Shown here: one piece after another, positions 2,709 to 64,000 of the stretch
Layout of the letters: the number at the start of each line of letters is the position of its first letter
Position numbering within the stretch: position 1 is the first letter of the stretch
Assembly: GCF_963921235.1 (NCBI RefSeq)
Contig: NC_086108.1
Coordinates: 57,228,001-57,292,000 of the forward strand
From: Mobula hypostoma
Taxonomy: Eukaryota
Length of the DNA stretch: 64,000 bases
Direction: 5' to 3'
Notes under the pieces: generated by a model
What the model was told of the DNA's origin: nothing
What the model saw: only the letters and a program-made list of their open reading frames with translations
Databases searched by the model: none
Program-made: the position numbers and the translations under genes

Positions 2709-3138
2709 CAACAAACAACCTGATGGCATGAACATTGACTTCTCTAACTTCCGCTAATGCCCCACCTCCCACTCCTACCCCATCCGTTATTTATTTTTAT
2801 ACACACATTCTTTCTCTCACTCCTCATTTTCTCCCTCTGTCCCTCTGACTATACCCCTTACCCATCCTCTAGGTTCCCCCACCCCTTGTCTTTCTCCCCA
2901 GACGTCCTGTCCCATGATCCTCTCATATCTCCTTTGCCAATTACCTGTCCAGCTCTTGGCTCCATCCCTCCCCCTCCTGTCTTCTCCTATCATTTTGGAT
3001 CTCCCCCTCCCCCTCCCACTTTCAAATCTCTTACTAACTCTTTCTTCAGTTAGTCCTGACGAAGGGTCTCAGCCTGAAACGTCGACTGCACCTCTTCCGA
3101 GAGAAGCTGCCTGGCCTGCTGCGTTCACCAGCAACTTT
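2709..3138 (+). mobile_element. Penelope-like element 3' fragment nested in the Tigger
   Basis: Encodes ...QPDGMNIDFSNFR* (PLE ORF end), then a pyrimidine tract and a hammerhead motif. Flanked by a 14-bp direct repeat GAAKATGATGTTGA (2695-2708, 3139-3152). Confidence 0.8.
3052..3087 (+). ncRNA. Minimal type I hammerhead ribozyme motif (PLE-associated)
   Basis: AGTC-CTGACGA-AGG GTCTCAG CCT-GAAA-C-GTC-GACT: stem I AGTC/GACT, intact core boxes, GUC cleavage triplet. Confidence 0.75.
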
Positions 3139-3439
3139 GAAGATGATGTTGAAGAGGTTTTGGCATCCCATGACCAAGAACTGATAGATGAAGAGCTGAT
3201 GCAATTGGAAGAGGAAAGGATAACAATTGAAACCGAATGAGTAATGATAAAGTATGACTTTAATTTTGAAAGGGTACGTGGGTTTAGGGGATATTTGCAG
3301 GATGGTTCGAGTGCTTACAAAGAACTGTATGATAGAAAAATGCGTGAGGCTCAGCAGTCAAGCAAGCCTTCCACATCAGCCACAGCAGACAATGAACCTC
3401 AACCTTCGACATCGAGATGACACCCCAGTGTCCCACTAC

Positions 3440-3755
3440 CCCAACCCCCAGGCCGCAGACAGATACCCATTCGCGAAGAATGCAGCGGTAGCCGGGATGC
3501 CCCCAGCACATCTTTAAGGAAAAAGCTGAAATAAACAAGCCAATTAATTAGGTGCCACCCGACACATAATTGTCGGCCCAGATCAGAGACGATGCAATCG
3601 GCACTGATCTGGGCCGACATTTACGTGTCAGGCAGCACCTAATTAATTAGCATGTTTATTTCGGCTTTTTTTCTTAAAGATGTGCTGTGTGCCTCCAGGC
3701 TACCGCTGCATGCTTCGCGAATTGCTATTGGTCGCTGCCTGGAGGGTGGGGGCCA
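3440..3755. repeat. Long imperfect inverted repeat inside the Tigger element
   Basis: Perfect core TGTCGGCCCAGATCAG (3571-3586) / CTGATCTGGGCCGACA (3604-3619). Arms extend through ATTCGCGAAG (about 3469) / CTTCGCGAAT (about 3722) and more weakly beyond. Confidence 0.9.
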
Positions 3756-4713
3756 CTGCACCACCCAAACACCGATGACTCAGTCTAACACACCACCATC
3801 AGTGTGCTCCGCGCTTTCCCAACTCCAGTAAGTGATACTACACTGTACATACATTATTTCTACTTTATATCGGCTGTGTATTTTTACGTGTTATTTGGTA
3901 TGATTTAGCAGCTTCTTAGCTTAAAGGTTCCTGGAGAGCGCTTGCGCCGTGTCTTTGCTGACGGCGCTTGTGTGAGATTTTCGCTACGGAGAACAGTTCA
4001 GGCAATAATTGTGGAAAAGTATTTCTACTTTATATAAGCTGTGTATTTATCATATCATTCCTGCTTTTACTATATGTTATTGTTATTTTAGGTTTTATGT
4101 GTTATTTGGCATGATTTGGTAGGTTATTTTTGGGTCTGCGAACGCTCACAAAATCTTCCCATATAAATAAATGGTAATTGCTTCTTCGCTTTACGACATT
4201 CCGGCTTACGAACCGTTTCATAGGAACCCTCTACCTTCGGCTGGCGGGGGAAACCTGTATAAATAAAGTTCCCAAAGTCATTCAAGCTCGGGTGGCAAGT
4301 GTTACAGTCTTACAGTATGTAAGAAAGTTCAGTTCGATCCACGGAATTGAGGTGAGACAGAGATGTTTGTAATCCAAGTAAACAGGTGTCTTTGATCTTC
4401 CCGATGTCCCCCAAATCCCTCAAGTTAGCCAAATGTGACTACACTAAAGGTGCCGTCTTCAAGTGGTAAAACTACCAACCCAGGCGAGGGTTAGACACAT
4501 CGGTAGTTCCCAAAGGGTCACCCTTACACGCACCGTAATAGCCACTGATTGATCTCTCTTGATTGACCCTCAACCCACCCTCGTGTGCACTTGAAGAGCT
4601 CATTTAGTGACTCTTCCGTCACCAGCCTCTGTGCGTCTCGTGTGTCTGCGAGAAAGACAGTTGACTTTGTTTAAATACACAGATGCTGAACACCAGCTGT
4701 CCATCATCTAACT

Positions 4714-4716
<3 letters not shown>

Positions 4717-4752
<36 letters not shown>
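4717..4752. repeat. (TC)18 microsatellite
   Basis: Read directly from the sequence. Confidence 0.95.
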
Positions 4753-4755
<3 letters not shown>

Positions 4756-61000: not shown

Positions 61001-61089
61001 AACCTCCCACTTTCAGAATAACTCTACTTAATTGTACAATCCAACTTTTTACTTTGGAAGTGGCAATAACCAACCTTCTGATGCAAGTA

Positions 61090-62646
61090 CAGTGGCTATA
61101 AAAAGTATTCACTCCTCTTAGAAGTTTTATTGTTTTACAACATTGAATCACAGTAGATTTAATTTGGCTTTTTTGATACTGATCAACAGAAAAATACTCT
61201 TTTGTGTCGAAGTGAAAACAGATCTCTACAAAGTGATCTTAATCAATTATAAATATAAAACACAAAATAATGGATTGCACAAGTATTCACCCCCTTTAAT
61301 ATGACACAACAAATCATCATTGGGGCAGCCAATAGATTTTAGAAGTCACACAATTAGTTAAATGGAGATCTTGGCTGCACACAGGTCTCCAAAAACAGGT
61401 GTTTCAATTGACTGTAGTACACCTGTATCTGGAAGTTCCAACTGCTGGTGAGTTAGTATCCTGGCAAAACTACACCATGAAGACAAAAGAATACTCCAAG
61501 CAACTTCGCAAAAAGATTGTTGAAAAGCACAAGTCAGGAGATGGACACAAGAAAATTTCCAAGTCACTAAATATCCCTTGGAGTACAGTTAAGTCAGTCA
61601 TCAAGAAATAGAAATAATATGGCTCAGATGTAAATCTGCCAAGTGTAGGCCGTCCTCAAAAACTGAGTGACTGTGCAAGAAAGGGACTAGTGAGGGAGGC
61701 CACCAAGAGACCTATGACAACTCTGGAGGAGTTACAAGCTTCAGTGGCTGAGATGGAAGAGAATGTGCAATCAATAACTGTAGCCTGCATGCTTCACCAG
61801 TCACAGCTTTATTGGAGAGTGGCAAAGAGAAAGCTACTGTTGGAAAAAAAACCACACACATGAAATTTTGGCTAGAGTTTGCCAAAAAGCATGTGGGAGA
61901 CCCTGAAGTCAGCTGGAAGGTTCTCTGGTCTGATGAAACCAAAATTAAGCTTTCTGGCCATCAGACTAAATGCTTTGCTTGTTGCAAGCCAAGCACCACA
62001 CATCATCAAAAACATACCATCCCCCCTGTGAAGCATGGTGGTAGGTCCATCATGTTGTGGGGATGCTTCAGTGCAGCAGGCCTGGCAAGGTTTATGAAGG
62101 TGGAGGGCAAAATGAATGCAGCAAAAATACAGAGAAATCCTGGACGAAAATCTGTTGCAGTCTGCACAGGAATGGCTTAAGGTCAAAGTTAATGTCCTAG
62201 ACTGGCCAAGTCAGAGTCCAGACCTCAATCCAAAAGAGAATTTGTGGTTGGATTTGAAAAGGGCTGTACAGTCATGATCCCCATGCAGTCTAACAAAGAC
62301 TGAGCAATTTCTTGAAAAAGATTTGGGAAAGATTGTAGAGTCCAGATGTGCAAAGCTGACAGAGACCCATCCATACAGACTCAAGACTATAATTGCTGCT
62401 AAAGGTGCATCTACTAAATACTTGAAGGGGGTGACTACTACTTATGCAATCAATTATTTTGTGTTTTATATTTGTAATTAATTTAGATTACTTTGTAGAG
62501 ATCTGTTTTCACTTTGACACAAAAGAGTCTTTTTCTGTTGATCAGTATCAAAAAAAGCCAAATTAAATCCCCTGTGATTCAATGTTATAAAACTCAAAAA
62601 TTTCCAAGGGTGGTGGGGGCAAGTACTTTTTTTTATATAAGCACTA
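61090..62646 (+). mobile_element. Degenerate Tc1 element with long TIRs
   Basis: TA-CAGTGGCTATAAAAAGTATTCAC start and a matching right TIR. Remnants MKTKEYSKQLRKKIVEKHKSG, VLWSDETK, KHGGRSIMLWGCF and [10 protein letters not shown]. Confidence 0.9.
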
Positions 62647-62746
62647 TAAATACAAATACCTTGTCAGGTATTTTGCCTTTACTGTACTTTAATAAATTTC
62701 ACAGTTTTTCATTTGTCATTTCTTTATTATACAACTGGTGCTATTT

Positions 62747-62936
62747 ACAGGGTATTTTAAAGGAAAGGTGACGTGATTATCAAATGGGTTAGGTGTTTAT
62801 TTATTTAATCCTAACCCAACAACCTGTAATTTGTCAAAACCACAGGGTGCTTTAAAGATAGGGTGAGGTGATCATCAAGTGGGTTAGAGGTGTTTATTTA
62901 ATCGTTACCCAACCACCTGTGATTCGGCAAAACCAC
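62747..62936. repeat. Two diverged tandem copies of a 95-bp unit
   Basis: Units start ACAGGGT at 62747 and 62842 and share TGGGTTAG...ACCCAAC.ACCTGT.ATT...CAAAACCAC. Confidence 0.85.
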
Positions 62937-63019
62937 TAATACAGCACTGCACAGATTCCACTCCTTCCGGGTTTGTGGTAGTCTACCAGTACTCACTACT
63001 GAGCTACAATGGATATTCT

Positions 63020-64000
63020 ATACAGATGAGCACAAAAACAGGCCCTTTTACCCAATAATGAAATTAGTAATCAAATACGCAACTAAACTAATACCTTCTG
63101 CCAATGCAATCTCCATATCATTCCATTTCCTGCATATTTGCCTGTCTAGGAGACTCTTAAAATACCTCTACCACCATCCCAGTGAGAACATTCTAGGCAG
63201 CCAACGTTCCCAGTGTGTAAAATTGCCCTACACATCTGCTTTGAACTTCCCTCTCTCACCTTTCACATACATGATTTCTAGTATTAGACAGTTCAACCCT
63301 GGGAAAAATATATTAGTCATCTATTCCATCTATGCCCCTCATAATCTTATAACCTTCTATGAGATCACCTTTCAGCCTCTGCTGTTCCAGAGAAGACAAC
63401 CCAAGTTTGCTTAAACTTTCCTTATGGCTCAGACACAAAATGCTGGAGGAACTCAGCAGGCCAGGCAGCAAGTGGATGAACAGTCGACGTTTCGGGCAGA
63501 GACCCTTCTTTGGGACTGGGAAGGCAGGGGAAGATCCCAGAATAACAAAGTGGGGGAGAAGGGGAAGGAGGCTGGCTGGAAGGTGATAGTCAAGTGTGTG
63601 GGAAAGGTAAAGGGCTGGAAAAAGAGGAATCTGATAGAAAAGGAGAGTGGACCATGGGAGAAAGGAAAGAAGGAAGTTAAATCCTTGCAAAGTGTCAGGC
63701 TCCAATGGTGCACCTGACAGCATGCTGAAAATATGTGCTAATGAACTGGCGGGAGTGTTCAAAGACATCTTCAATCTCTCCCTGCTGCAGTTGGAGAATC
63801 CGTCTGCTTCAAAAGCGTGACAATCATATCAATGCCCAAGAAGGGTAGGGTGAGCTGCCTCAACAACTTTCGCCCAGTTGCACTCGTATCTGCTGTGATA
63901 AAGTGTTTTGAGGCATTAGTCATGGCTAGAATCAACTCCTCCCTAAGCAAGGACCTGGACCCACTGTAATTTGCCTATTGTCACAATGGGTCTGCAGAGG
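63020..64000. mobile_element. Cluster: CR1 3' end (-), PLE fragment (-, about 63430-63680), Rex1-type fragment (+, to window end)
   Basis: LGLSSLEQQRLKGDLIEGYKI; hammerhead with mutated core at 63481-63517; region homologous to the Rex1 copy at 13140-13500. Confidence 0.7.

What the first reader, a model, noticed from the sequence alone, without database searches (positions are those of the whole stretch)
3052..63517. Dispersed family of minimal, dimer-type hammerhead ribozymes carried by Penelope-like repeats throughout WLS introns
Seen: the motif (C)AGTC-CTGANGA-AGGG N6 CCY-GAAA-C-GTC-GACT recurs more than a dozen times. Core-intact copies are at 3052-3087, 29575-29610 and 38698-38731, and near-intact ones at 45694-45731 (+) and 40868-40899 (-). 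Decayed copies lie at about 6148, 7248, 9790, 11294, 24097, 27712, 30385, 48016, 49505 and 63481. Helix III reduces to A-C-G-U with no loop, a palindrome that cannot close within one molecule. At 2709-3138 and 38270-38790 the motif sits just downstream of the PLE ORF stop (...MNI.FSNFR*). Established: Penelope-like elements carry minimal type I hammerheads that cleave as dimers. Inference: this genome has an abundant ribozyme-bearing PLE family, and the intact copies may still be catalytic.
Basis: partly seen in the sequence, partly recalled or inferred. Interest (0 to 1): 0.8.

Follow-up and report, generated by a model that had tools for sequence, protein, structure and literature searches.

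The report
Penelope retroelement hammerheads in WLS introns
The repeated 36-base motif is the already described minimal hammerhead ribozyme motif from the end repeat of a Penelope-like jumping gene; this genome holds tens of thousands of copies, and the intact ones in this window lie backwards to the WLS gene, so they are likely inert passengers.

Summary
Observation confirmed; the kind is already known. Thirteen copies match the 36-nt template (one background match per three shuffled windows, only at the loosest cut-off). Three keep a full core: 3052, 29575, 38697. They belong to a Neptune-type Penelope-like element (PLE): a full copy elsewhere has two same-strand motifs 3,518 nt apart around a reverse transcriptase plus GIY-YIG ORF. 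The exact core occurs 76,577 times in the 3.48-Gb genome (control 0). Stem I covaries across unrelated families from metagenome contigs, but not within this genome.

Corrections:
- WLS is on the minus strand, so all three intact copies are antisense to it.
- The two 'near-intact' copies are broken next to the cut site.
- Rfam does not detect the motif.
- No window copy has a nearby intact partner.

Across 17 genes there is no strand bias (10 sense, 8 antisense). 108,610 young copies run through the cut site and 1,516 break near it, so uncut RNA is likely the usual template. Folding predicts a self-blocked monomer. Catalysis was not tested. The scan has reported this family many times on other DNA of this genome and in other genomes.

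The parts
3052..3087 (+). Intact minimal hammerhead motif, young subfamily A; predicted cut after 3083; antisense to WLS, in its last intron
2716..3140 (+). 5'-truncated PLE copy (ORF end with stop at 2755-2757, 294-nt pyrimidine-rich spacer, motif, short tail), inside what looks like a DNA-transposon relic, with a roughly 14-bp duplication seen by eye
29575..29610 (+). Intact motif, subfamily A; predicted cut after 29606; antisense to WLS
29575..29707 (+). 133-bp mini-insertion that starts at stem I and ends at the long tail terminus, with a 9-11 bp target-site duplication
38697..38732 (+). Intact core, subfamily B, stem I of 3 bp; predicted cut after 38728; antisense to WLS
38262..38791 (+). 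Truncated PLE copy of subfamily B (end of endonuclease domain, stop ending 38459, 237-nt spacer, motif, tail)
45695..45730 (+). Decayed motif: both boxes kept, two CpG-type changes at 15.2 and 1.1
40866..40901 (-). Decayed motif, sense to WLS: boxes kept, stem I lost, 15.2 changed
63482..63517 (-). Decayed motif, sense to WLS: CUGA box destroyed, stems intact
30386..30421 (-). Decayed motif, sense to WLS
48013..48048 (-). Heavily decayed motif, sense to WLS
6148..6231 (+). Decayed copy with an internal deletion of the motif, plus tail
7248..7283 (+). Decayed motif (GAAA box lost)
9784..9819 (+). Heavily decayed motif
11293..11328 (+). Decayed motif, with an ORF-end remnant upstream at about 11030-11101
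24097..24133 (+). Old variant with one extra base in stem-loop II, decayed
27712..27747 (+). Heavily decayed motif
49506..49541 (+). Decayed motif downstream of old endonuclease-domain remnants (about 48517-49164)
43443..45435 (-). Old broken PLE ORF remnants (RT, linker, endonuclease), 55-65% amino-acid identity to the young element
30939..31106 (-). WLS exon (host gene, minus strand), matches Wntless residues 269-324
5688..5840 (-). WLS penultimate exon (approximate limits)
1558..1670 (-). WLS last coding exon (approximate 5' limit)

Best explanation
The motifs are minimal type I hammerhead motifs in the terminal repeat of a hugely amplified Neptune-type Penelope-like retroelement, and the copies in WLS introns are truncated insertions that are likely inert. 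How it most likely works: (1) Shown: a full unit of about 3.5 kb has one motif about 300 nt after the ORF stop, so a tandem carries two same-strand motifs around the ORF. (2) Inferred from published PLE work: the element's protein starts reverse transcription at one of two sites downstream of the motif. This matches the two 3' end peaks at +95-100 and +130-135 seen here. (3) Inferred: copying usually runs through the uncut motif and stops early, leaving solo or fold-back scraps that then decay neutrally. (4) Predicted: a lone motif folds stems I and II but pairs GACG of its first box with CGUC at the cut site, which shuts the core. (5) Inferred: cutting would happen only when two motifs pair through ACGU in a tandem transcript, probably with help from the element's protein, to trim the element's own RNA.
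For: Two sense motifs 3,518 nt apart plus an inverted 5' copy in L095. A stop-free 1,007-aa stretch in L097 with DKG, YIDD, CX4CxxC and GIY-YIG/CxxC motifs, with weak Pfam RVT_1 and GIY-YIG hits. 76,577 exact cores, control 0. Bimodal 3' ends in 89 subfamily A copies. Stem I covariation in 41 distinct types from metagenome contigs: 120 of 164 cells Watson-Crick against a shuffle mean of 67, 0 of 5000 shuffles reaching it. Between the window's A and B copies the motif is 89% identical and the spacer 51%. 108,610 subfamily A tails still carry the upstream AAA box against 1,516 that lack it. No strand bias in 17 genes. Monomer fold. PMC4209133 and PMC11167929.
Against: No cleavage was measured. 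There is no two-sided covariation within this genome. About half of the copies have G-U rather than the conserved G10.1-C11.1 pair (43 against 39 of 89). The Pfam RT hit is below its cut-off, and no RT tree was built, so 'Neptune' rests on the linker motif. The folding model ignores tertiary core contacts and protein. In 12 of 30 inspected broken copies the break falls at the cut site, which could mean some in-vivo cutting, although most of these have short matching sequence that explains the joint.
Confidence: 0.72

Rival explanations
1. The motif no longer cuts in this family. It is kept as a structural or protein-binding part of the RNA, together with the equally conserved downstream tail hairpin where reverse transcription likely starts.
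For: The tail is as well kept as the motif among subfamilies B and old (88-100% against 67-89%). The active-type dimer scores -8.9 to -13.5 kcal/mol against -19 to -23 for two monomers in the three intact copies. A GUCGAC palindrome across the cut site forms a stronger duplex than ACGU (-7.5 against -1.7). Almost all insertions read through the site. In the anole element, ribozyme mutants inserted normally in vitro (PMC11167929).
Against: Every catalytic position is the majority base in 89 copies of all ages. The same core with covarying stem I recurs in unrelated families. The anole motif does cut when protein is added (PMC11167929).
Confidence: 0.17
2. Dispersed intact copies are active in cells: transcripts from the many near-identical copies pair in trans and cut host pre-mRNAs, and WLS has purged its sense-strand copies for that reason.
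For: In WLS, 0 of 5 exact cores are sense and every sense-strand copy in the window is broken. 76,577 exact cores exist. 12 of 30 inspected broken copies break at the cut site.
Against: In the 16 other genes, 10 of 13 exact cores are sense; the total is 10 sense to 8 antisense, p = 0.81. All tail copies are 80 sense to 72 antisense. WLS alone gives p = 0.06. A 4-bp helix III is weak, and the monomer is predicted to be self-blocked.
Confidence: 0.08
3. The copies are non-autonomous retrozymes or a domesticated intronic ribozyme of WLS, not PLE scraps.
For: Some insertions are little more than the motif plus tail with their own target-site duplication (29575).
Against: The copies are collinear with the full PLE and differ only in 5' extent. 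Only 4 of the first 100 listed cores have a same-strand partner within 1 kb. The intact copies are antisense to WLS, and the subfamily A ones are 94-98% identical to a mobile element.
Confidence: 0.03

Closest known systems
Minimal hammerheads (min-HHR) in the pLTRs of metazoan Penelope-like elements (Cervera and De la Pena 2014, PMC4209133)
   Same: Type I topology, loopless palindromic helix III, one extra base between positions 9 and 10.1, short helix I, place in both flanking repeats, mostly solo dispersed copies.
   Different: Helix II is 4 bp (7-8 bp in the Schistosoma families). G10.1 faces U in about half of the copies. The family is very uniform rather than highly variable. The count, 76,577 exact cores, exceeds the about 9,000 (Xenopus) and 4,000 (coelacanth) of that paper, which used a different descriptor.
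Neptune clade of endonuclease-bearing PLEs (features as given in PMC8557442)
   Same: One ORF with RT and C-terminal GIY-YIG, CX2-5CxxC linker, tandem pLTRs, adjacent inverted 5'-truncated copy, 30-40 bp optional tail.
   Different: Clade assigned by motif only; no tree was built.
Poseidon element PAc of the green anole (PMC11167929)
   Same: Two 3' termini that define a tail; a hammerhead in the repeat; uncut RNA as the main template.
   Different: In PAc the ORF starts inside the ribozyme. Here the first ATG of the long frame appears to lie about 170 nt downstream of the motif's start (read from the translations, not mapped), and a Zn-finger-like linker is present.
Non-LTR retrozymes and conserved amniote intronic hammerheads (bioRxiv 10.64898/2026.07.22.740005; PMC6155905)
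   Same: Type I hammerheads in animal repeats or introns.
   Different: These copies are not tandem arrays, and the intact ones here are antisense to the host gene and belong to young mobile subfamilies.

Membership tests
PLE minimal hammerhead (min-HHR) | Conserved core boxes CUGANGA, GAAA and UH | tested here: met
   Three window copies; majority base at every core position in 89 copies; 76,577 exact cores
PLE minimal hammerhead (min-HHR) | Loopless palindromic helix III (15.1-16.1) | tested here: met
   ACGU in intact copies; departures are mainly CpG-type
PLE minimal hammerhead (min-HHR) | Extra base between positions 9 and 10.1 | tested here: met
   A in 86 of 89 copies
PLE minimal hammerhead (min-HHR) | G10.1-C11.1 pair | tested here: inconclusive
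   G-C in 39 and G-U in 43 of 89; 3052 and 29575 have G-U, 38697 has G-C
PLE minimal hammerhead (min-HHR) | Helices I and II form, with covariation | tested here: met
   Both form in the predicted monomer. Stem I covaries across metagenome families. No two-sided change within this genome. Stem II covariation could not be tested in the outside set because the pattern fixed it.
PLE minimal hammerhead (min-HHR) | Located in both flanking repeats of a PLE ORF | tested here: met
   L095 has sense motifs at 1521 and 5039 of the oriented locus
PLE minimal hammerhead (min-HHR) | Self-cleavage as a dimer | not testable with these tools
   No assay; folding energies disfavour the bare dimer
Neptune-type EN+ PLE | RT followed by C-terminal GIY-YIG endonuclease in one ORF | tested here: met
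   GIY-YIG passes Pfam's cut-off in one fragment (24 bits against 22.6); RVT_1 is below cut-off (E 4e-5)
Neptune-type EN+ PLE | CX2-5CxxC linker between RT and endonuclease | tested here: met
   CX4CxxC at residue 874 of the 1,007-aa stretch
Neptune-type EN+ PLE | Partial tandems, inverted 5' copy and 30-40 bp tail | tested here: met
Neptune-type EN+ PLE | Placement in the Neptune group on an RT tree | not tested
   No reference PLE proteins were fetched; no solved-structure relative found
Rfam hammerhead families (such as Hammerhead_1) | Match to the covariance model | tested here: not met
   No hammerhead family among matches at E up to 1 for the window or E up to 10 for 29500-29750
Non-LTR retrozyme | Tandem array with a hammerhead in each short unit | tested here: not met
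   Solo copies in the window; 4 of 100 listed cores have a same-strand partner within 1 kb, 8 within 4.5 kb
Domesticated intronic hammerhead (RECK type) | Sense to the host gene | tested here: not met
   0 of 5 exact cores in WLS are sense
Domesticated intronic hammerhead (RECK type) | Conserved at the orthologous site in other species | not testable with these tools
   No related animal genome is held

The most novel reading that the evidence does not exclude
With some 76,000 near-identical intact cores, this genome would be the first where dispersed minimal hammerheads reach a level that lets transcripts pair in trans or be switched on by the element's protein, and so cut host pre-mRNAs at thousands of introns. 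A built-in GACG:CGUC lock would be the off-switch that lets the host tolerate the load.
Probability: 0.08. Interest if true: 0.75.

Novelty: new member of a known kind. Interest (0 to 1): 0.25.

Why it matters
The kind was described in 2014, so the catch is correct but not surprising. What remains useful is scale and uniformity: a recently active family with intact ORFs, two-motif units and tens of thousands of identical cores. That makes it a good test bed for the open question of what PLE hammerheads do and whether they cut in cells. The lack of strand bias in introns and the read-through of the cut site argue that lone copies cost the host little.

Tried and rejected
1. Rfam scans found no hammerhead family.

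2. Purging of sense-strand copies from introns was suggested by WLS (0 sense, 5 antisense). It was not borne out in 17 genes, 795 kb: 10 sense to 8 antisense exact cores, and 80 to 72 tail copies in 791 kb. Fifteen of the genes are glutamate-receptor-family genes, and power is low for intact cores.

3. A compensated subfamily with a GUU triplet and A1.1: only 363 matches, mostly double CpG decay by inspection of the 100 listed.

4. A spliceosomal intron from the ORF stop to stem I was considered. The spacer begins with GT in 4 of 4 B copies and 1 of 2 comparable old copies, ends at a pyrimidine tract plus AG, and subfamily A has a branch-point-like word. A search for spliced retrocopies gave 27 matches, none a clean GT-AG removal by inspection. 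Contigs showed no clean splice joint among the listed ones (tables were cut). Left unsupported.

5. Insertions starting at the cut site as a record of in-vivo cleavage: 12 of 30 inspected break there, but most are fold-back or deletion joints with short matching sequence. Inconclusive.

6. Expression: no RNA holder listed. The runs laid were contigs of guessed kind and say nothing on strand or ends.

7. No solved structure matches the ORF.

8. The paper by Lunse, Weinberg and Breaker on dimer cleavage is not held; only its title was seen in a reference list.

9. In one search one of six copies failed to parse, and the tail identities involving the 3052 copy are artefacts and were dropped.
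Full report
1. Observation. With the 3052-3087 copy as template, 13 places match at up to 9 mismatches of 28 fixed positions, against 0.33 per shuffled window. Two further named copies, 6148 and 24097, are indel variants. Three copies keep both boxes, ACGT at helix III and a paired stem I: 3052, 29575 and 38697, the last with 3 bp. 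The copies at 45695 and 40866 keep the boxes but have lost the pair beside the cut site or all of stem I. Numbered as a type I hammerhead, the motif reads: stem I AGUC, core CUGANGA, one extra A, stem II GGGU/RCCY with a 4-nt loop, GAAA, C-G-U-C, cut, GACU. Rfam does not detect it.

2. Host context. A Wntless-family profile hits exons on the minus strand. One exon matches Wntless 269-324 at E 5e-32. The last coding exon ends at about 1558 and exon 1 lies at about 77,090 in window coordinates (located with short recalled motifs). So every copy is intronic, plus-strand copies are antisense to WLS, and all three intact copies are antisense. The minus-strand copies with a recognisable motif (30386, 40866, 48013, 63482) are all broken. 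That the host is a cartilaginous fish is recalled and also stated in earlier scan notes; no call here tests it.

3. The element. The 3052 copy has at least 40 relatives at 94-95% identity among 5,655 candidates. Walking upstream gave full units. L095 has two sense motifs 3,518 nt apart around the ORF and an inverted copy at its 5' side. L097 has a stop-free stretch of 1,007 element-derived residues with DKG, YIDD, a CX4CxxC linker and GIY-YIG with CxxC. Pfam gives RVT_1 (E 4e-5, below cut-off) and GIY-YIG. The linker marks Neptune and Nematis rather than Penelope/Poseidon (PMC8557442, passages); no tree was built. The 3' ends of 89 subfamily A copies fall in two peaks, 40 at +95-104 and 28 at +130-139 from the motif start. 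This is the optional 30-40 bp tail that PMC11167929 ties to two internal start sites of reverse transcription. Window copies are 5'-truncated pieces of this unit; 29575-29707 starts at stem I and has a target-site duplication.

4. Abundance. The exact core pattern occurs 38,149 + 38,428 = 76,577 times in 3.48 Gb, with 0 for the reversed control. An unbiased 914-kb sample held 140 tail-anchored copies, 89 with an alignable motif, which extrapolates to several hundred thousand relics. PMC4209133 reports about 4,000 in coelacanth and 9,000 in Xenopus with a different descriptor. Two paper searches (hammerhead ribozyme + shark + Penelope; Penelope + elasmobranch + transposable elements + genome) showed no study of this family in their listings. 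The 2026 retrozyme preprint includes one chondrichthyan genome. I did not see the supplements of these papers, and they may list such elements.

5. Is it a structured RNA? Within this genome the inserted copies decay mainly at CpG sites and show no two-sided covariation. Pair 10.4-11.4 is U-G in 74 and U-A in 10 of 89; pair 10.1-11.1 is G-U in 43 and G-C in 39. Between the window's A and B copies the motif is 89% identical, the ORF end 78% and the spacer 51%. Among B and old copies the tail is as well kept as the motif. A metagenome scan with the core pattern returned 123 stretches, of which the 80 listed were used. Their 74 distinct motifs give 41 stem I types with 120 of 164 cells Watson-Crick, against a shuffle mean of 67 (0 of 5,000). 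Those families mostly use A2.1-U1.1 where this one uses C2.1-G1.1. The types are related, so this is strong support for the architecture but not a formal probability.

6. Is it active here? Not testable. Four indirect results point to inert solo copies. (a) The predicted monomer forms stems I and II but also pairs GACG with CGUC, closing the core: -9.7 to -11.3 kcal/mol against -5.7 to -7.3 for the open form. (b) The active-type dimer scores -8.9 to -13.5, worse than two monomers (-19 to -23) or the best co-fold; the model lacks tertiary and protein terms. (c) In 17 genes exact cores are 10 sense to 8 antisense, and all tail copies 80 to 72. (d) 108,610 subfamily A tails keep the AAA box upstream of the cut site and 1,516 have three non-A bases there. 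Allowing for that filter passing roughly a third of random flanks (my estimate), about 96% or more were copied through an uncut site. Against this, 12 of 30 inspected broken copies break exactly at the cut site, though most such joints have short matching sequence, and WLS alone is 0 sense to 5 antisense (p = 0.06). Only 8 of the first 100 listed cores have a same-strand partner within 4.5 kb, while 31 have an opposite-strand one.

7. Mechanism. Shown: anatomy, copy number, tail termini, orientation. Taken from published work: dimer-type architecture with low in-vitro activity (PMC4209133); protein-assisted cutting that is dispensable for insertion in vitro (PMC11167929). Inferred: the motif is kept by selection on source elements, cuts only in tandem transcripts and probably with protein help, and is dead weight once scattered. 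Rivals are a non-cutting structural role (0.17), host pre-mRNA cleavage in trans (0.08), and retrozyme or domesticated status (0.03).

8. Papers seen. PMC4209133: parts 1-2 of 4 (abstract, results, discussion, start of methods). PMC11167929: parts 1-2 of 4 (main text, start of methods). bioRxiv 10.64898/2026.07.22.740005: parts 1 and 3 of 5 plus passages. PMC8557442, PMC6765202 and PMC6155905: passages. Lunse et al.: title only.

9. Verdict. A correct and well-spotted observation of a known kind. The scan's notes hold 110 entries for this genome that fit 'hammerhead Penelope' and similar ones for other genomes. New member of a known kind; interest 0.25.

Noticed in passing
L100:2324-2969 (about 66,324 and 66,934 in window coordinates, just past the window end): Two intact same-strand motifs 610 nt apart in WLS intron 1, antisense to WLS; the nearest natural dimer candidate.
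   Followed up: partly
window 3030-3055 and 38455-38700: The spacer before the motif ends like a 3' splice site (branch-point-like word, pyrimidine tract, AG at stem I), and in subfamily B begins with GT at the ORF stop, as if it were an intron. No spliced copies were found.
   Followed up: yes
window 24315-24511 and 43085-43162: Two old fold-back (head-to-head) mini-insertions of the same tail.
   Followed up: no
window 50964-51767 (+) and 61752-62180 (+): Open frames that look like Tc1/mariner transposase pieces (naming from recall).
   Followed up: no
window 52782-58181 (-): A near-complete L1/Tx1-like element with ORF1-like and endonuclease-RT frames, broken by frameshifts (naming from recall).
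   Followed up: no
window 14365-16700 (-): A CR1/L2-like RT-bearing element with a 557-aa open stretch (naming from recall).
   Followed up: no
window 3547-3643: A near-perfect 97-bp inverted repeat (weak Rfam microRNA-type hit, far below threshold), probably the end of a small DNA-transposon relic.
   Followed up: no
G000 C50:292578, C70:291414, C76:43291, C124:24673, C166:76136: One short-spacer variant of the motif recurs near the starts of several contigs, perhaps a subtelomeric duplication.
   Followed up: no
L368/L369 (G000 C1:61736930-61736991): A 31-bp tandem duplication whose unit starts exactly at the predicted cut site.
   Followed up: no
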